Origin: a virus
Lineage: Duplodnaviria; Caudoviricetes
Virus record (IMG/VR): IMGVR_UViG_3300020386_000268
Coordinates: 1-41,479 of that record
Reading direction: 5' to 3' (one strand)
DNA length: 41,479 nt
Shown here: positions 23,272 to 31,034 of the stretch, in pieces
How the letters are laid out: every line of letters begins with the position of its first letter
Position numbering within the stretch: position 1 is the stretch's first letter
Notes under the pieces: generated by a model
Told to the model about the DNA's origin: nothing
What the model saw: only the letters and a program-made list of their open reading frames with translations
The model's database searches: none
Program-made: the position numbers and the translations under genes

Positions 23272-23640
23272 CTAATCATCTGATTGTTCTTTGTCGGCAT
23301 ATTCACAGGCATCGTTGTATAAGTTTTTGTTTACTTTATATACATAGTCAACAAAATAATTATACCACTCTACTTTAGAATCAAGTTCAGCATTCTGTTC
23401 TTGCAGTCTTTCCTCATCATATGCATCAGAAGATTTTGACCCATCGTCCTCCAAATTAATTGTTGTAAGAGAATCTGACCCATTGTCTTGGCTCATTATA
23501 TCTAAATCATCTGCATCAGCTTGTGCTATCCACTCTTCATCTGTCCAACTTTCACAATTTGGATAGTCAATATGAAACCCTCCGAGATTCATATAAAATT
23601 CCTTAATTAAGGAAACCTTTTTACTCATTATTTTACTCAT
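23272..23640 (-). CDS. Acidic early hypothetical protein
   Basis: ATG 25 nt after processing site S1. Confidence 0.75.
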   Translation of the reverse strand: MSKIMSKKVSLIKEFYMNLGGFHIDYPNCESWTDEEWIAQADADDLDIMSQDNGSDSLTTINLEDDGSKSSDAYDEERLQEQNAELDSKVEWYNYFVDYVYKVNKNLYNDACEYADKEQSDD

Positions 23641-23649
23641 AATATTTAA

Positions 23650-23693
23650 TTTAAGATTAATAATAGACGTTGAGGGATAGTCTCCTACCCCTC
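23650..23693 (-). repeat. S1: hairpin + hammerhead substrate site (ACGUC^UAUUAUU), cut 23666/23665
   Basis: GAGGGGUAG-GAGA-CUAUCCCUC hairpin, then AACGUCUAUUAUUAAUCUUAAA. Confidence 0.85.
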
Positions 23694-23699
23694 TTGTTT

Positions 23700-24011
23700 T
23701 TACTCAGACTCCCAAATGCTACGAAAATTTGGATTTCCCAGTAACTCTTGATAAGACTCATTTAAAATCTTGTCGTCTTTATATAAGTCTTCAAGATATT
23801 CTTTTAGCTTGGGCATTGTTGTCTTAACGTGCCTTGCTAAATATTTAAATGATTCTCTTTTGCTTGGCTCTTCTATTTCTAAAAAACCATTTTCGTCAAA
23901 GTAAAAATTAAGATTTAAGTTAGTCATCTCTTCGTTTACTTTGTGTGTAATCCATATTGACACCGACTGATTTTCGTGGTCAAAGGATGTACTAAATTTT
24001 GAATGTAACAT
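23700..24011 (-). CDS. Early hypothetical protein
   Basis: ATG 25 nt after S2. Confidence 0.75.
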   Translation of the reverse strand: MLHSKFSTSFDHENQSVSIWITHKVNEEMTNLNLNFYFDENGFLEIEEPSKRESFKYLARHVKTTMPKLKEYLEDLYKDDKILNESYQELLGNPNFRSIWESE

Positions 24012-24020
24012 ATTATTAAA

Positions 24021-24058
24021 TTTAAAGTTAGTAATAGACGTTATATAATACTATATAA
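24021..24058 (-). repeat. S2: hairpin + hammerhead substrate site, cut 24037/24036
   Basis: UUAUAUA-GUAU-UAUAUAA, then CGUCUAUUACUAACUUUAAA. Confidence 0.85.
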
Positions 24059-24090
24059 AAAAATGAGAGGTAGAAAAATCTACCCCCCAT
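24057..24090 (-). terminator. Intrinsic terminator inside the early operon
   Basis: AUGGGGGGUAGA-UUUU-UCUACCUCUCAU (two G.U pairs) followed by a U-tract. Confidence 0.7.
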
Positions 24091-24104
24091 ATAAAAAAAC
24101 TAAT

Positions 24105-24437
24105 CTAATCAACATTAACTAAAACTTCTTCTGAATCCGTACTGAATCCATTAATACCAGTTCCAGTAGAAAAACGTATAGTCCAATAATAGAACGCCAC
24201 TATGTCTCGGTGTTTAGGAGAAATATTTCTCTTTTCAATAGCGTCATCGAGTGTCGAAAAATATTCAACGTGCCTTGAGGGATTTTTACTTGACGGGCAA
24301 TCGCTTTGAATCCAAGTTCCAGTCTTTGATAACATAAAACCTTTCATTTTTTCTGCATCGTAACCTTTCTTGACTACCAAATAGTGGTCAGGATTTTTGT
24401 TTCTTTCTCTTGAAACCTCTGTATATTGATTTTCCAT
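24105..24437 (-). CDS. Early hypothetical protein
   Basis: ATG 25 nt after S3. Confidence 0.75.
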   Translation of the reverse strand: MENQYTEVSRERNKNPDHYLVVKKGYDAEKMKGFMLSKTGTWIQSDCPSSKNPSRHVEYFSTLDDAIEKRNISPKHRDIVAFYYWTIRFSTGTGINGFSTDSEEVLVNVD

Positions 24438-24446
24438 ATAATATTA

Positions 24447-24489
24447 TTTAAAGTTAGTAATAGACGTTGGGGAGGATATACCCCCCCAA
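24447..24489 (-). repeat. S3: hairpin + hammerhead substrate site, cut 24463/24462
   Basis: UUGGGGGGG-UAUAU-CCUCCCCAA, then CGUCUAUUACUAACUUUAAA. Confidence 0.85.
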
Positions 24490-24493
24490 AAAA

Positions 24494-24925
24494 TTATGGG
24501 CTTTCATACAAACATAAAGCCTTCCGTTCTTGGCATAGCCATGTGTCTCTATTGACACCTTTTACAACTGATGTTAGATGACCACCAAACCCTACTTTTA
24601 TATCAAAAATGTAGTTTTTGTTAACATCTAAAAACCTTTTGTGTTTCCACATTGGTAACCAACCCTTACCTTGTTTCAAAGATTTTTTAGTCCACCCTTT
24701 ACTTTCCAAGTAAGGCTCATAAACATCACGACAATTCAAATACGGAATTCCTTTCTCAACTGCCACATCCATTAAGTCTTTAAAGACTTTCATGTAGTCC
24801 AGTTCTAATGATAATGCGATTGCCCTAATAGCACAATCTCCTACCAAATCTTTTTTCTTTCCGACTGGGAAATACTTTTCCCTACCTCCATGAGAATGTT
24901 CATACTTAATAAAATTAATTTTCAT
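24494..24925 (-). CDS. Early protein with possible Cys-His-Asp (papain-like) motifs; start revised to MKINFIK
   Basis: GDCAIRAIA...Y, GGHLTSV..G and DTW. ATG 26 nt after S4. Confidence 0.65.
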   Translation of the reverse strand: MKINFIKYEHSHGGREKYFPVGKKKDLVGDCAIRAIALSLELDYMKVFKDLMDVAVEKGIPYLNCRDVYEPYLESKGWTKKSLKQGKGWLPMWKHKRFLDVNKNYIFDIKVGFGGHLTSVVKGVNRDTWLCQERKALCLYESP

Positions 24926-24935
24926 AATTATATAA

Positions 24936-24976
24936 TTTAAGATTAGTAATAGACGTTGGGGACACATAGCCCCCAA
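24936..24976 (-). repeat. S4: hairpin + hammerhead substrate site, cut 24952/24951
   Basis: UUGGGGGC-UAUGU-GUCCCCAA, then CGUCUAUUACUAAUCUUAAA. Confidence 0.85.
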
Positions 24977-24980
24977 ACAA

Positions 24981-25781
24981 TTATTTAATTAATCTGAATT
25001 GATAGTCACAATCTCCGTTATAATATTCAGCCGAAATAAATGGCTCAAATTTTTCTCCTTGAGATTTTCTTTGCTCCTCAAGTTCTTCAGCTTCAGAACA
25101 ATCATGCTCCGTAACTTTAGTAATCAAATTATCAATCTCTTCAAAATATTCCTCCTTTGTTAAAACTTCAACTTCATTTAAACTTGTTGTTATTTTAACG
25201 CCATACGGAATTTTATTACTTTGATTGAATTCAAGAATCTGATATGACCCATAGTCTTCTCCAACTGAATAAGATATGATTTTTTTCTTCAGTAATCTAC
25301 CATCGCCCCATTGAGAATTATCATCGTAAAACTCCACGCTTGGATGTTCGTGTAGACTCTCACATTTAGGCACAAAACCCTTGTTAAAATTAACTTGTCT
25401 TTTAACAAATTCTTCAGCATCATTATATGCTTGATGCTCACACGAATACTTTTTAATTTGTACACCATTTTCAGAAGAATATCCTTCTCCATTCCAAGTA
25501 TCGACTAAAAGATAGGTTTTGGAAGAAGAATCCTTCATATTGTCCTCATTAACCTTGAGAGTATATAACGGTGTAGGATTGTCTTCCCAATTGATAACAA
25601 TCTCATCGTCAACTAAAAATTGACTTTTGTCGTCAATCACATTCCATTGCTCAAGTTCTTCACGAGAAAATTCATCACTATACTCTCCTTCATTATAAAG
25701 TTTTTGTGCTTGTTCAACTGAATCAGCTTCAACTTCAATTTCTGTTGAAATAGTCTTTGTTTCAATAATTGTAATTTTCAT
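24981..25781 (-). CDS. Acidic early hypothetical protein; start revised to MKITIIETK
   Basis: ATG 26 nt after S5. N-terminal EVEADS.EQA motif is common in small phage domains. Confidence 0.7.
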   Translation of the reverse strand: MKITIIETKTISTEIEVEADSVEQAQKLYNEGEYSDEFSREELEQWNVIDDKSQFLVDDEIVINWEDNPTPLYTLKVNEDNMKDSSSKTYLLVDTWNGEGYSSENGVQIKKYSCEHQAYNDAEEFVKRQVNFNKGFVPKCESLHEHPSVEFYDDNSQWGDGRLLKKKIISYSVGEDYGSYQILEFNQSNKIPYGVKITTSLNEVEVLTKEEYFEEIDNLITKVTEHDCSEAEELEEQRKSQGEKFEPFISAEYYNGDCDYQFRLIK

Positions 25782-25791
25782 AATATTTAAT

Positions 25792-25835
25792 TTTAAGATT
25801 AGTAATAGACGTTGGAGGGAAATACATCCCTCCAA
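25792..25835 (-). repeat. S5: hairpin + hammerhead substrate site, cut 25808/25807
   Basis: UUGGAGGGA-UGUAUU-UCCCUCCAA, then CGUCUAUUACUAAUCUUAAA. Confidence 0.85.
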
Positions 25836-25840
25836 TCATA

Positions 25841-26806
25841 TTAAACAAAAACTCTTCCTAAACCATTATCAGCAGTAACCTTACCACCAAATCCATAATT
25901 AGATTTTTGTGCAACGATATTGCTAAACTGGTTGAAGATAGATTGATCAAGTCTTTGAAGACTACCAGTCAATTTAGACTCTTGTCTTGAATTCTCTGAC
26001 CCTCCTTTGTGAGTGCTATAATGTGTAACACCACTAAATAAACCCCATAGTGTTTTACCTTTATAACTCATCTCTTCAGCGATTGACCTTGTAACTTTCT
26101 CACAAATATTAATCTTCCTTGTACTATACTTATCTTGGGCAATAGCCATAGAAAGTTTAGTATCAACTCCACTAATTTTTTCAATCACTTTTTGTGCAAA
26201 GGAATCATCAATCTCAATGTTTGCCATCTTATTAAAAGTCTCGTACAGACTTGTATCAGACTCTTCAAGATTTTCCAATGCTCTCAATGATACATCTATT
26301 AGTCTTCTCATATTGCTCGTATGACGTGCAGAGGATTCTAATGATTTTTTCATTGCAGAGAATTGATTGTCACATGAAATTGTAACTCCAGTAGTACCCC
26401 ATCTTAATGAGGTGCTACCATCATGAGAATTAATAGCAGTTGCATAACGCTTGATTGTATCTTGACCAACTTTGATTGGCTCCAGTTCCAACTGCATCGC
26501 AACTCTACGACCACCTTTAAATGATACACCATGTGTTATTGGTTTCCCAATCACATCGGCAACATTCAAAACCAGTTCAGCCAGTTCTGAATTTTGGAAT
26601 ATTTCGTATTGCTTGGTAAATGCACCAAAACAATCTTTGTTATCTGAACGGACAACACCGAAAAAATCGGTTTTGTATGAATCGACACCATCAATAAATT
26701 GCAATGGTTTCTTTTCAACTTTCCAATTCATGTTAAACTTATCCAAAGTATTTTCTACTTCTGACTTGCTAATAAACTCTTGATTTTTTGTAATAGAATT
26801 TTTCAT
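25841..26806 (-). CDS. DUF932-family (phage/plasmid-like) protein
   Basis: MNWKVEK.P, VVRSDN...G...QYEIFQN, GGRRV, NSHDGSTS, SCDNQF, RHT and TLWGLFSGVTHY. Confidence 0.8.
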   Translation of the reverse strand: MKNSITKNQEFISKSEVENTLDKFNMNWKVEKKPLQFIDGVDSYKTDFFGVVRSDNKDCFGAFTKQYEIFQNSELAELVLNVADVIGKPITHGVSFKGGRRVAMQLELEPIKVGQDTIKRYATAINSHDGSTSLRWGTTGVTISCDNQFSAMKKSLESSARHTSNMRRLIDVSLRALENLEESDTSLYETFNKMANIEIDDSFAQKVIEKISGVDTKLSMAIAQDKYSTRKINICEKVTRSIAEEMSYKGKTLWGLFSGVTHYSTHKGGSENSRQESKLTGSLQRLDQSIFNQFSNIVAQKSNYGFGGKVTADNGLGRVFV

Positions 26807-26815
26807 TTTATATAA

Positions 26816-26854
26816 TTTAAGATTAGTAATAGACGTGGGAGGATTACCCTCCCA
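26816..26854 (-). repeat. S6: hairpin + hammerhead substrate site, cut 26832/26831
   Basis: UGGGAGG-GUAAU-CCUCCCA, then CGUCUAUUACUAAUCUUAAA. Confidence 0.85.
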
Positions 26855-26860
26855 TTGTAA

Positions 26861-27091
26861 CTAAAGATTCCTACCGAATGCCATAAACTCATCAATCTCA
26901 TCAAGTCCATCGATAAGTTTATCTATTCTTGGCAATTGTGATGGCTCATTGTGTATTGCAAACTTTTTCAGTTCCAACAATGAACACCATAATGTGCCGA
27001 TGTTATCATCATAATTTTTAGGATTAGAATTAACATAGAATACTGCATTTTGCTCTTTAGCTAAATCAAAGTGTTTAGATATAATATCCAT
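26861..27091 (-). CDS. Early hypothetical protein
   Basis: ATG 25 nt after S7. Confidence 0.75.
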   Translation of the reverse strand: MDIISKHFDLAKEQNAVFYVNSNPKNYDDNIGTLWCSLLELKKFAIHNEPSQLPRIDKLIDGLDEIDEFMAFGRNL

Positions 27092-27100
27092 TTTATTTTA

Positions 27101-27141
27101 TTTAAGATTAGTAATAGACGTTGGGAGATTGTCTCTCCCAA
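27101..27141 (-). repeat. S7: hairpin + hammerhead substrate site, cut 27117/27116
   Basis: UUGGGAGA-GACAA-UCUCCCAA, then CGUCUAUUACUAAUCUUAAA. Confidence 0.85.
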
Positions 27142-27151
27142 TCACAAACAA

Positions 27152-27340
27152 TCAGTTAATCTTGATTGAATGTTTTTTCAATTGTTCTGAATTTTCTAAT
27201 TGCTCACATACGTTGTAAACTACGGCATTAATTAGTTTGAATGTTTGAGGATTTAATCCGCTAACATCTAATTTATCTAATGCGTTACAAGTAAGAATTT
27301 CAGCATTTGAAAACATTTGAATTGAAATTGTATTTTCCAT
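27152..27340 (-). CDS. Early hypothetical protein
   Basis: ATG 26 nt after S8. Confidence 0.75.
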   Translation of the reverse strand: MENTISIQMFSNAEILTCNALDKLDVSGLNPQTFKLINAVVYNVCEQLENSEQLKKHSIKIN

Positions 27341-27351
27341 TTTATATAATA

Positions 27352-27392
27352 TTTAGATTAGTAATAGACGTTGGAGGAATCTCTTCCTCCGA
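27352..27392 (-). repeat. S8: hairpin + hammerhead substrate site, cut 27367/27366
   Basis: GGAGGAA-GAGA-UUCCUCC, then AACGUCUAUUACUAAUCUAAA. Confidence 0.85.
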
Positions 27393-27398
27393 CCATAA

Positions 27399-27704
27399 TT
27401 AAATAGACTCTTCTACTCTATCTAATATTTCAGAAAGTTCAATTAGTGTACTTGGTTTGAATATTTCTGACTCATGCAAATCAGTCATAAGTCTATCATA
27501 CCAGTAACCATCAAAAAGTCCAAACAGCATGTTTGTTATTTCAGAATCATAATCTCCAGTTCCATAGGTTGATTGAATCATATTTAATACCAATGTTCTA
27601 TCATCCTGTCCAAAAATTTCGTGTCTGTCAAATCTTCTGTGAGTGTACTCTTTCGTTGGATTCATATGTTTCTGAATCTTCTGTAGATAATTAGTGTAGT
27701 TCAT
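27399..27704 (-). CDS. First early gene, hypothetical
   Basis: ATG 27 nt after the ribozyme cis cleavage site. Confidence 0.75.
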   Translation of the reverse strand: MNYTNYLQKIQKHMNPTKEYTHRRFDRHEIFGQDDRTLVLNMIQSTYGTGDYDSEITNMLFGLFDGYWYDRLMTDLHESEIFKPSTLIELSEILDRVEESI

Positions 27705-27724
27705 TTTAATATAGTTTTAAGATT

Positions 27725-27827
27725 AGTAATAGACGCAGAGGTAATTGAAACAACTACCTCATCGTCACGTTTCGTCCTGTATGAAAGCTACTAAACGCTC
27801 AAACCATTTGGACTCGTCAGTATTACT
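27725..27827 (-). ncRNA. Type I hammerhead ribozyme, predicted cleavage GUC^ at 27732/27731
   Basis: Minus strand reads AGUAAUA (stem I) CUGACGA (core) GUCC-32 nt-GGAC (stem II) GAA ACG..hairpin..CGU (stem III) C^ UAUUACU (stem I'). All core nucleotides and three stems are present. Confidence 0.93.
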
Positions 27828-28085
27828 GGGTTTGATTAGCTTCCATCAATCTTTAAATATATATGTATAGACGGCATTTAGCCGTAGTCCCTATCTCCAT
27901 TGGAGGAGGATGTAGTCAACACTGGGAGCGAGGATGCTCTACCACCATGCCTATGTTGGCAATTGTTGATAAGAAGACTACGTTTGGATTGTGTAGTGAG
28001 CGAATCGCTCTTGGGTTTTTAACCTGACTGCTTCTCTTCAGCCGTCTTCAGTAATCTACAGATTGGCATCCGTCCAAAAGACACA

Positions 28086-28117
28086 CAAATATAATGTATT
28101 AGTTCGAATCTACCAAA
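28086..28117 (-). promoter_or_regulatory. Bacteroidota sigma70-type early promoter (TTTG-N20-TATATTTG)
   Basis: Perfect -33/-7 consensus pointing into the ribozyme leader and early operon. Confidence 0.8.
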
Positions 28118-28422
28118 CCACAAATACTAAATCTTACATCATTGGTACATAGGCAATCTTATATATGACTTTATTTTATCGACTTTATAAAAGGTTGGTA
28201 GTGAGGAAAACCCTAGTACATATAAAGAGGGATATAGGGATGTTGCATTACTGCGTGTATTATACGATAGTTTCTCCATTATAGTGGTCTATCGTAACAA
28301 AAAGGTAAAATGTTTGTGTAACTGGATTCTAAAATAGAGGTGCAGTAGGTCTGACAAACGACTTTTCTGTGTGCGTTTGCCGTTTGTATTATATATATAA
28401 CCCAAATACTCAATATTTCTAA

Positions 28423-29190: not shown

Positions 29191-30780
29191 ATGATAGAAA
29201 AAAATATAGATTTTAATGACGACGCTAAAGTTTCTTTGATTGAAGGAGTAAACAAAGTAGCTGACGCAGTAAGCTCTACACTTGGAGCAGCCGGAACAAC
29301 CGTGATACTTGAAGATCAAACTGGTAGACCACACATAACTAAAGACGGAGTAACAGTTGCAAAGACAATAAACCTATCAGACCCGGTAGAACATCTCGCA
29401 GCTGAGATTATAAAACAAGCCTCTATTAAGACAGCTGATGAAGCTGGAGACGGAACAACCACCTCTATAGTTTTAGCTAGAGCTATTATTGGTAACGCTT
29501 TTGAAAAAATTAAAGAAAACCCCAAAATCAATGTTACAAAACTTAGAGAAGAAATAGAATATTTATCAGATAAGGTATATCAGTATTTAGATAAAAAAGC
29601 AAAACCAGTAGATGAGCAGTCTGTTGAAAGCGTAGCAACTATATCAGCAAACAATGACGCTGCTCTTGGAAAAATAATTTCCCAAGCATACAATAAAGTT
29701 GGGGTTGATGGCGTTGTAACTATAGAGGAGTCTATGACATCTGAAACCTATGTAGAGATAGTTGAAGGAACAAGAATCAAGAAAGGCTTCCAAAGCCCAT
29801 ACCTAATCACTGACAAAGAAAAAAACACTGTCGTACTAGACAATCCCTTTGTTTTAATATCTGATAAAAAAATTGATGTCCTTGAAGACATAGAGGTCCC
29901 ACTTAAGACCGCTATGAATACCAAAAGATCGCTCCTTATCATATCTGAAATAGAACAACCTGTAATGAACGTGCTTAATGTGAATAAGGCAAAAGGTATT
30001 CTTAAGGTGAATGTGCTTCCTCCAGAGGGAGTTGGATTGAATCGGTTTGAATTGTTGGAAGACCTTGCGGCTATGACTGGAGCGATTGTGGTATCAGATC
30101 AGACGGGTAACGATTGGAATGGTGTTACACCTGAATTTCTTGGCGAAGCCAAAAAGTCGGTGTCAACAAATAAAGAAACCATATTAACTCTAAACCTAAA
30201 AAAAACTGCTGACGCAGTTTCAAGTCAAGTAGAGAGAATAAAATCAATATTAAAGAATAAAGAGGATGTATCAAATGATTGGCATTATAGGGATCGACTC
30301 TCTAGGCTGTCCGGCGGCATTGCTGCAATATTTGTTGGAGCCCATACTGAGGTAGAAATGAAAGAAAAGAAGGATAGAGTTGATGACGCAATATGTGCAA
30401 CTAGAGCTGCTCTTGAAGAGGGGATACTTCCAGGGGGTGGTGTTGCTCTTTTCCATGCCTCCTCAACTATATTTGGAATGTCAGTCGGAAAAAAAGAAGA
30501 AAGAAGGGTGGCTTGCGAAATATTATACAAGGCACTTGAAGAACCATTTAGAACCATAGTTCACAATTCAGGTATAAACATAGATCATATAGAAGAAAAG
30601 ATTGTTAAGTCTGGTAGACATTCTTATGGTTATGATGTAAAAAACAAAAGAACAGGAGACATGTTTAAATATGGCATAATTGATCCACTTAAAGTTACAA
30701 AGATGGCTCTGAAGAACGCTATATCTGTATCTAACACTATTCTGCAAACTAATTGTGTAATATCAAACAAAAGAGCATGA
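29191..30780 (+). CDS. groEL: Phage-encoded chaperonin GroEL
   Basis: ITKDGVTVAK, AGDGTTT, VATISANND, KKDRVDDA..ATRAA.EEGILPGGG and GIIDPLKV. Confidence 0.97.
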   Translation: MIEKNIDFNDDAKVSLIEGVNKVADAVSSTLGAAGTTVILEDQTGRPHITKDGVTVAKTINLSDPVEHLAAEIIKQASIKTADEAGDGTTTSIVLARAIIGNAFEKIKENPKINVTKLREEIEYLSDKVYQYLDKKAKPVDEQSVESVATISANNDAALGKIISQAYNKVGVDGVVTIEESMTSETYVEIVEGTRIKKGFQSPYLITDKEKNTVVLDNPFVLISDKKIDVLEDIEVPLKTAMNTKRSLLIISEIEQPVMNVLNVNKAKGILKVNVLPPEGVGLNRFELLEDLAAMTGAIVVSDQTGNDWNGVTPEFLGEAKKSVSTNKETILTLNLKKTADAVSSQVERIKSILKNKEDVSNDWHYRDRLSRLSGGIAAIFVGAHTEVEMKEKKDRVDDAICATRAALEEGILPGGGVALFHASSTIFGMSVGKKEERRVACEILYKALEEPFRTIVHNSGINIDHIEEKIVKSGRHSYGYDVKNKRTGDMFKYGIIDPLKVTKMALKNAISVSNTILQTNCVISNKRA

Positions 30781-31034
30781 AAGCATTAGGTAGCTTTGTT
30801 TTACTAGAAGAGGTAAAAGAAGAAATAAAAAATGACATGGGGCTAGTTGTAACTGCTTCAAGTGAGCAAAAAATAAGATACAAGCTAGCAAAAGTAATAA
30901 CAACAGGAGAAGATGTAAATGGAATTAACGCTGGAGATAGTGTTTATTATGACACTGCTGCTGGTTCTGATATTCGATTGGACGGGAAAAGACTAGTAGT
31001 TGTACACGACAGGGGTGTAGTTATAGTTTTGTGA
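30777..31034 (+). CDS. groES: Co-chaperonin GroES
   Basis: MKALGSFVLL...GLVV...AKVITTGEDV.GI.AGDSVYY...G..I. ATGA overlap with groEL. Confidence 0.85.
   Translation: MKALGSFVLLEEVKEEIKNDMGLVVTASSEQKIRYKLAKVITTGEDVNGINAGDSVYYDTAAGSDIRLDGKRLVVVHDRGVVIVL

What the first reader, a model, noticed from the sequence alone, without database searches (positions are those of the whole stretch)
27732..27773. Register switch in stem III that could convert the self-cleaved ribozyme into a trans enzyme
Minus strand reads GAA-ACGU-GACG-AU-[hairpin]-UG-CGUC^. For cis cleavage the terminal CGU pairs with ACG. The same CGUC is also perfectly complementary to the adjacent GACG (27766-27763), which extends the hairpin across a 2x2 loop. 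Sliding to that register leaves ACGU single-stranded. The cis site is GCGUC (wobble to ACGU), whereas all eight downstream sites are ACGUC (perfect match), which favours exchange to the downstream substrates.
Basis: partly seen in the sequence, partly recalled or inferred. Interest (0 to 1): 0.85.

Follow-up and report, generated by a model that had tools for sequence, protein, structure and literature searches.

The report
Phage hammerhead releasing its own tail
A marine phage carries one hammerhead-type RNA ahead of eight copies of its cut site alone; after a predicted self-cut it is predicted to refold and let go of its own end, which would free it to cut the other sites, but the four-letter fold proposed here is only one lineage's version of that release.

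Summary
The letters are as described. After cleavage the GACG/CGUC register is predicted 3.1 kcal/mol more stable than the cutting register, and 2-5% of random linkers do as well. GACG survives in 3 of 7 distinct homologues and the G16.4 wobble in 2 of 7; the wobble gives no bare-duplex advantage. The same register also wins in the uncut precursor, so it is not triggered by cleavage. The freed ACGU partly folds onto the core, and two homologues use a 7-8 bp core-closing helix instead. What is shared is the outcome: array-heading ribozymes are predicted to abandon their own stem III (P 0.00-0.01 in 5 of 7, 0.18-0.38 in 2), while 13 of 13 stand-alone hammerheads with intact stem III in related phages keep it (P at least 0.90). 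Ribozyme arm and downstream sites change together in a diverged clade. Best reading: a self-releasing, trans-acting mRNA-processing hammerhead. Nothing is shown experimentally. The scan noted the one-ribozyme-many-sites layout before on other DNA (e1-6237059, e1-6275539); a word search found no note on the switch.

The parts
28086..28117 (-). Bacteroidetes-type promoter-like site (TTTG, 20 nt, TATATTTG; consensus recalled)
27870..28082 (-). Conserved structured leader RNA ahead of the ribozyme, no Rfam family
   Evidence: (7 of 45 predicted pairs with changes on both sides)
27848..27853 (-). Distal stem I arm AAGAUU, complementary to AAUCUU of the sites
27840..27846 (-). 5' strand of long-range helix 2 (pairs with 27787-27781 in loop II)
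   Evidence: 100% of cells paired, 1 one-sided change
27829..27835 (-). 5' strand of long-range helix 1 (pairs with 27805-27799 in loop II); stem I/loop II pseudoknot
   Evidence: 4 of 7 pairs with changes on both sides
27821..27827 (-). Proximal stem I arm AGUAAUA
27814..27820 (-). Catalytic core CUGACGA (C3-A9)
27774..27813 (-). Stem II (GUCC/GGAC) and 32-nt loop II
   Evidence: 1 pair with change on both sides
27767..27773 (-). G12-A14 and the stem III arm ACGU (27770-27767)
27763..27766 (-). GACG, alternative partner of the tail CGUC (the finding)
27738..27760 (-). 10-bp hairpin, the counterpart of the hairpin in front of each downstream site
27719..27736 (-). Own site GCGUC, predicted cut between 27732 and 27731, then UAUUACU AAUCUU
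27354..27371 (-). Site 2 without core (predicted cut after 27367), hairpin just upstream, ATG 26 nt on
27104..27121 (-). Site 3 without core (cut after 27117)
26819..26836 (-). Site 4 without core (cut after 26832), ahead of the DUF932 gene
25795..25812 (-). Site 5 without core (cut after 25808)
24939..24956 (-). Site 6 without core (cut after 24952)
24450..24467 (-). Site 7 without core (cut after 24463)
24024..24041 (-). Site 8 without core (cut after 24037), weak A-U hairpin, just behind a terminator-like element at 24090-24053
23653..23670 (-). Site 9 without core (cut after 23666), UAUUAUU variant that keeps pairing by G-U

Best explanation
A type I hammerhead-fold RNA heads the early operon of a marine phage and matches eight core-less sites in front of genes; it likely cuts itself once, is predicted then to drop its own interrupted stem III, and would go on to cut those sites in trans, with the GACG/CGUC register as this lineage's predicted way of parking the cut tail. 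Shown by sequence: core, arms, 8 matching sites, arm-site covariation, covarying pseudoknot, a 5-7 nt bulge behind ACGU(N) in all 7 variants. Predicted: the refolded states. Inferred: self-cleavage, release of the 3' product (possibly helped by ribosomes loading 25-27 nt downstream), trans cleavage into gene-sized mRNAs each ending in a protective hairpin. The register is an equilibrium present before and after the cut, so it is a brake on self-cleavage as well as a release device, worth roughly 1-3 kcal/mol, not an on/off switch.
For: Arm and sites covary: arm AGUAAUA/G with UAUUACU in 5 variants, arm AGUAUAU with AUAUACU in L371/L379; swapped pairs lose 3 of 7 pairs; 45 of 45 downstream sites pair 7/7 with their own arm, and the three kinds of deviation seen all give G-U pairs. 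Proximal and distal arms plus ACGU account for the whole repeat. Pseudoknot helix 1 has 4 of 7 pairs changed on both sides. After cleavage P(own stem III) is 0.004, 0.011, 0.014, 0.000, 0.000, 0.18, 0.38 in the 7 variants against at least 0.90 in 13 of 13 stand-alone hammerheads; 3 further ribozymes with mismatched stem III give 0.55-0.85, and 2 of these 3 have a core-less site that fits the arm by 6 Watson-Crick pairs against 4 (plus 1 G-U in L453) at the own site. GACG register beats cis by 3.1 kcal/mol; L381 keeps the geometry with GGCG. Related phages carry complete hammerheads in the same gene-front position, which gives a plausible origin for the sites.
Against: No cleavage or expression data. 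The 7 variants are three linker types of one phage group, not independent. The switch helix has no pair changed on both sides, and cannot have, as CGUC is fixed. In the minimal-enzyme test the natural linker is not clearly better than random: 12% (37 C) and 5% (15 C) of 200 random linkers do as well in the window, 64% and 92% at 37 C in L371 and L379. The register wins in the precursor by 4.3 kcal/mol. In the whole 5' product the proximal stem I arm is predicted mostly paired elsewhere (P free 0.01 in the window; pseudoknots not modelled). GACG binds a downstream site in the wrong register more strongly (-5.2) than ACGU binds it in the right one (-3.5). L371/L379 have a U.C mismatch at 10.1/11.1 and an unclear stem II.
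Confidence: 0.5

Rival explanations
1. Trans cleavage is real, but GACG is incidental or serves mainly as a brake on self-cleavage; the bulge alone makes the tail let go.
For: Random linkers give median P(own stem III) of 0.01-0.33 at 37 C; GACG kept in 3 of 7; register favoured in the precursor; L379 has no such register.
Against: Isolated-domain null 1-4.5% for the three GACG variants and 5-20% for L381; L381 and L370 keep 4 and 3 pairs over a 2x2 loop despite other letters; loss of GACG pairing costs 9- to 80-fold in P(ACGU free).
Confidence: 0.2
2. Only self-cleavage happens; the downstream repeats are relics of decayed hammerheads kept alike by cassette recombination, or signals for ribosomes or a protein nuclease.
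For: Relatives carry complete hammerheads before genes; the arm must track its own site anyway, and repeats can be homogenised, so covariation could be indirect; cassettes are shuffled between relatives.
Against: Conservation of the repeat begins at A16.4 and ends with the distal arm match while hairpin letters vary freely; deviations keep pairing by G-U; the weak own stem III and the extra scaffold helices have no purpose in a single-cut ribozyme.
Confidence: 0.15
3. The conserved switch is another one: the freed ACGU (plus linker) folds onto the core and the end of the stem I arm, giving a closed resting state that ejects both products; tail parking by GACG only assists it.
For: L370/L381 form a 7-8 bp helix of ACGUUGGC with UGCUGACG (P 0.91-0.92, duplex -9.6 to -9.7), and their G at position 2.1 occurs with that linker; the GACG variants form 3 pairs of the same helix with P 0.41-0.51 at 37 C and 0.79-0.87 at 15 C.
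Against: Absent in L371/L379 (P at most 0.01); such a helix could equally be a misfold that blocks activity; one lineage, two sequences.
Confidence: 0.1
4. The repeats are DNA-level elements (phage hairpin promoters or operators) and the ribozyme happens to sit on the first copy.
For: Hairpin plus conserved 20-mer before each early gene resembles hairpin promoters of N4-like phages (recalled); site 8 follows a terminator-like element.
Against: No DxDxD motif in the 2354-aa virion protein and no RNA polymerase hit among 28 and 15 proteins scanned (record 67% complete); G-U-compatible variation and a match to both arms point to RNA pairing.
Confidence: 0.05

Closest known systems
Clustered complete hammerheads flanking genes in prophages and phages (Perreault et al. 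2011, PMC3088659; passages and sections 7 and 8 read)
   Same: Hammerheads in front of single genes or short blocks, proposed to process long phage transcripts into gene-length mRNAs; a stem I/stem II pseudoknot in about 40% of examples; weak stems III common. Related phages here show this layout (L411, L412, L421, L423).
   Different: There every cut site has its own core and acts in cis. Here one core faces 8 core-less sites and its own stem III is interrupted and predicted to open after cleavage.
Type I hammerhead ribozyme, Rfam RF00163 Hammerhead_1
   Same: Order stem I arm, CUGANGA, stem II, GAAA, stem III, GUC, stem I; all core letters present in the window.
   Different: Scores 14.9 bits against a gathering score of 34, E 2.1, because of the large loop II and bulged stem III; stem I is bipartite with a 20-nt bulge.
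Discontinuous mammalian hammerhead and the search for natural trans-cleaving small ribozymes (Weinberg, Weinberg and Hammann 2019, PMC6765202; passages and section 13 read)
   Same: [quoted passage not shown]
   Different: One site on the same mRNA; no self-release step and no array of targets.
Schistosoma Sm-alpha satellite hammerhead reported to cut another mRNA in trans (recalled; one search found no paper in the library)
   Same: A self-cleaved type I hammerhead proposed to act on another RNA.
   Different: Eukaryotic repeat with many complete copies; no co-evolving array of dedicated targets known to me.

Membership tests
Type I hammerhead ribozyme | Core C3UGANGA9, G12AAA15.1, U16.1, H17 | tested here: met
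   CUGACGA 27820-27814, GAAA 27773-27770, UC 27733-27732
Type I hammerhead ribozyme | Three helices around the core, stem I open-ended | tested here: met
   7, 4 and 5 pairs; 98% of 205 cells paired across 5 of the 7 variants, stem II with one double change
Type I hammerhead ribozyme | [quoted passage not shown] | tested here: met
   Predicted pseudoknot helix with 4 of 7 pairs changed on both sides; by covariation only
Type I hammerhead ribozyme | Rfam RF00163 gathering score | tested here: not met
   14.9 bits against 34; no hit at gathering level in the window
Type I hammerhead ribozyme | Self-cleavage 3' of position 17 | not testable with these tools
   needs an assay or RNA ends
Clustered complete phage hammerheads (Perreault 2011) | Each gene-flanking site has its own catalytic core | tested here: not met
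   0 of 8 downstream sites have GAAACG nearby
   3 of 7 distinct variants
   Best fold of the isolated domain in 5 of 7, marginal in L371, absent in L379; dominant in the larger fragment in 3 of 7
   Own site imperfect in 3 of 7 against 1 of 45 downstream sites (p 0.006 but rows not independent); no bare-duplex advantage
   Register favoured by 4.3 kcal/mol in the precursor in the nearest-neighbour model, which omits tertiary energy
Natural multiple-turnover trans-acting small ribozyme | Cuts separate RNA molecules with turnover | not testable with these tools
   needs an assay

The most novel reading that the evidence does not exclude
A natural small ribozyme that matures itself into a multiple-turnover RNA endonuclease: self-cleavage, then an evolved refold of stem III (tail parking by GACG here, a core-closing helix in L370/L381) ejects products and resets a pseudoknot-clamped enzyme that dices the phage early transcript at eight or more dedicated sites.
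Probability: 0.35. Interest if true: 0.92.

Novelty: new variant of a known kind. Interest (0 to 1): 0.72.

Why it matters
Small nucleolytic ribozymes are known in nature almost only as single-use, self-cutting motifs, and a 2019 review describes natural trans-cleaving ones as still being sought (PMC6765202, passage). A self-cleaved type I hammerhead normally stays blocked by its own stem III; here that block is predicted to be built out, which is the structural step a cis ribozyme needs to become an enzyme. The system is about 130 nt plus a 50-nt substrate, so the open question becomes directly testable in a tube, and relatives give natural controls (closed stand-alone hammerheads, three linker types). 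It would also be a natural design for turnover in engineered hammerheads.

Tried and rejected
No RNA holder listed for 23600-28200; the 3 same-sample RNA runs laid 0 contigs: no evidence either way. No DNA match among annotated phage genomes and only 24-30% identity DUF932 hits in the 25 rows shown of 216. 6 of 17 loci were chance matches and were dropped. Genome contigs gave 0 loci. L417 has another core-less array but its contig starts 59 nt before DUF932, so its ribozyme could not be read. The GGTCACC repeat of L404-L415 falls in and between genes without hairpin or start-codon spacing and was not pursued. Rfam found no family for the leader. A constrained two-strand energy model crashed and its retry gave no duplex values; plain duplex energies were used. 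Pairing of the stem III bulge with the leader's GCCGUC was considered and set aside: the register differs between variants and the whole-product fold gives it at most 0.17. Literature searches (listings and abstract starts) showed no report of a trans-acting phage hammerhead or of this refold; the library lacks most subscription papers. Passages of PMC6561176 (hatchet product dimer) were read and judged not a close parallel. I did not open the supplements of PMC3088659, whose alignments may hold related ribozymes.

Full report
Context. The window is a linear virus record, 67% complete, with crAss-type muzzle, primase, Rad52-like, DUF932 and GroEL genes. The runs offered for it are marine, and a promoter-like site of the Bacteroidetes pattern (recalled) lies at 28117-28086, so a marine Bacteroidetes phage is inferred. 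On the minus strand a conserved structured leader (28082-27870) is followed by a type I hammerhead fold (27853-27719) and by an array of small genes. Eight of them are preceded by a hairpin and ACGUC UAUUA(C/U)U AA(UC/CU)UU, with ATG 25-26 nt after the predicted cut. None has a core.

The observation. The letters and coordinates are right. In the 42-nt domain left after cleavage the GACG register is at -16.5 and the cutting register at -13.4 kcal/mol, P(ACGU unpaired) is 0.99, and 8 of 400 random and 18 of 400 shuffled linkers reach that value; at 15 C, 5 of 300. Removing the GACG pairing lowers it to 0.11 (37 C) and 0.012 (15 C); removing the bulge lowers it to 0. In the whole 352-nt 5' product the tail still pairs with GACG (0.92-0.95), but ACGU is free only 0.67/0.50 of the time, since it can form 3 pairs with the core. 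All energies are nearest-neighbour values without pseudoknots or Mg-dependent tertiary folding.

Homologues. Of 17 loci from two pattern scans, 11 were true homologues and 6 chance matches. With the window they give 7 distinct ribozymes in three linker types: GACGAU (window = L382, L383; L368/L369; L375), UGGC(A/G)AA (L370 = L131, L377, L378; L381) and AAACGGUAU (L371 = L290; L379). GACG is therefore kept in 3 of 7. In the isolated domain the alternative register beats the cutting one by 3.1, 2.1, 2.1, 0.8, 2.1, 0.2 and -0.4 kcal/mol in that order. L381 keeps 4 pairs over a 2x2 loop (GGCG/CGUC) and L370 keeps 3. On an alignment of 5 of the 7 (L371 and L379 left out, as they do not align here; structure taken from the window) the 4 switch pairs show 2 invariant, 1 changed on one side and 1 broken in one sequence; two-sided change is impossible while CGUC is fixed. 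In larger fragments L370 and L381 do not use this register (P 0.00-0.02) but fold ACGUUGGC onto the arm end and core (P 0.91-0.92), and L371/L379 are mixed. So the named switch is lineage-specific.

The wobble. G16.4 occurs in 2 of 7 own sites; L379 has a wobble one pair further in; 4 of 7 are perfect ACGUC. Downstream, 44 of 45 sites are ACGUC (3 loose pattern matches with 3-5 of 7 pairs were dropped; arrays are cut by locus ends). The contrast 3/7 against 1/45 gives p 0.006, but the rows share ancestry. The bare duplex is -3.5 kcal/mol with either letter; in the hairpin context the wobble costs 1.0. It is at most a minor contributor.

Timing. With stem I formed, the precursor prefers the GACG register by 4.3 kcal/mol in the window, 2.0-3.3 in L369, L375, L370 and L381, and by about zero in L371/L379. 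The fold is thus available before cleavage and would slow self-cleavage unless tertiary folding pays for it. GACG also fits any downstream site in a non-cutting register (-5.2 against -3.5), so it helps only while the tail occupies it.

What is shared. All 7 have a 5-7 nt bulge behind the 4-6 pairs of stem III, and the distal hairpin is simply the first copy of the hairpin that precedes each site. Among 80 loci with DUF932 relatives I found 13 distinct stand-alone type I hammerheads with intact stem III, 3 with a mismatched stem III, and the L370 ribozyme again. In a minimal-enzyme model (loop II shortened; a neutral stem II for L371/L379) P(own stem III after cleavage) is 0.90-1.00 for 13 of 13 stand-alone, 0.55-0.85 for the 3, and 0.004, 0.011, 0.014, 0.000, 0.000, 0.18, 0.38 for the 7 array ribozymes at 37 C. 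Two of the 3 intermediate ones have one core-less site upstream that fits the arm by 6 Watson-Crick pairs, better than the own site. Random linkers already give medians of 0.01-0.33, and the natural linker is beaten or matched by 4.5-30% of 200 random ones in the first five variants and by 64% and 92% in the last two, so the bulge does most of the work and the letters add a lineage-specific part.

Support for trans action. The repeat is accounted for by three enzyme segments: ACGU, the 7-nt proximal arm and the 6-nt distal arm AAGAUU. In L371/L379 the arm reads AGUAUAU and the downstream sites read AUAUACU (13 of 14; 1 AUGUACU); crossing arms and sites between clades loses 3 of 7 pairs; 45 of 45 sites pair fully with their own arm. 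The 20-nt stem I bulge pairs with loop II in two helices, one with 4 of 7 pairs changed on both sides (whole structure 0 of 500 shuffles for covariation score, which ignores relatedness). Such a pseudoknot is known to form without the substrate strand in other hammerheads (PMC3088659, section 7). In 6 of 8 sites the hairpin abuts ACGUC directly and in 2 with one base between, which would allow stacking on the short stem III (inference). Once any site is cut the rest of the transcript is detached, so most sites can be reached only in trans (inference). Against: no activity or expression data; the proximal arm is predicted mostly occupied in the free product; 3' product release from 13 pairs (-5.3 and -4.3 kcal/mol at 37 C, -7.9 and -7.2 at 15 C) may limit turnover more than stem III does; L371/L379 have an odd stem II with U.C at 10.1/11.1, where only U.U is described in the section I read; and concerted evolution of cassettes could explain part of the covariation.

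Known and new. Clusters of complete hammerheads that process phage transcripts are known (PMC3088659, passages), and relatives of this phage show them. Ten searches listed no trans-acting phage hammerhead and no such refold. Two earlier notes of this scan describe one hammerhead with many core-less sites in other genomes; I had reached that reading before looking and took the word core-less from them; they are not independent evidence. A word search for the switch found nothing.

Verdict. Observation confirmed; interpretation partly supported. The ribozyme most likely is built to let go of its own stem III and act on the repeats (0.5 with a real contribution of GACG, 0.2 more with GACG incidental, 0.1 with the core-closing helix as the true switch). 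The GACG register is one of at least two predicted solutions, is not cleavage-triggered in the model, and the wobble matters little. Interest 0.72; 0.92 if self-maturation into a multiple-turnover enzyme is shown.

Noticed in passing
window 28082-27870 (-): Conserved, covarying 200-nt structured leader ahead of the ribozyme in all 8 aligned sequences, with one hairpin deleted in L375 and L381; no Rfam family. A candidate new RNA motif.
   Followed up: partly
window 27875-27865 (-): The leader ends in CCGUC followed by UAUAC (AAUAUU in L371/L379), a weak copy of the target whose first base after GUC tracks the arm; could be a type III-like site that trims the enzyme's 5' end (3-pair stem III only).
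   Followed up: no
L290 2960-3020 (-), also L387/L403/L416: At the end of the L290-type array a complete type III hammerhead follows the same kind of G-C hairpin that precedes the core-less sites.
   Followed up: partly
L417 960-2620: Four hairpin + CCUC AUUUAAC (UAAUCUU) repeats before genes: a third target sequence with a CUC triplet; the contig ends before any ribozyme.
   Followed up: partly
L453 2870-3210; L456 690-1065: A core-less site upstream of a complete hammerhead fits the arm by 6 pairs; its own arm-like GGUUAA is locked in a UUCG hairpin. Looks like an intermediate between clustered and one-enzyme layouts.
   Followed up: partly
L371 and L379, stem II region: Core followed by U opposite C and a multibranched loop II with covarying hairpin; stem II closure unclear, activity uncertain although arm and 14 sites are maintained.
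   Followed up: partly
window 24090-24037 (-): A strong terminator-like hairpin with a U run lies just before site 8, whose own hairpin is A-U only; the same unit occurs twice in L368, L370 and L375. Read-through or a separate transcript is needed.
   Followed up: no
window 23269-23238 (-): Second copy of the promoter-like sequence just after the last gene of the array.
   Followed up: no
L379 3565-3637 (+) and three more places in L379/L381: The antisense strand of the sites matches Rfam BTncRNA_FopS weakly (best 38.8 bits, gathering 56, E 0.004); probably hairpin plus translation-start complement.
   Followed up: no
L404-L415: GGTCACC(C) occurs 4-8 times per 9-15 kb locus in the seven loci printed, inside and between genes; unexplained.
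   Followed up: no
window 29191-31034 (+): Phage-encoded GroEL followed by a 93-aa ORF that may be its GroES partner (not tested), divergent from the early operon.
   Followed up: no
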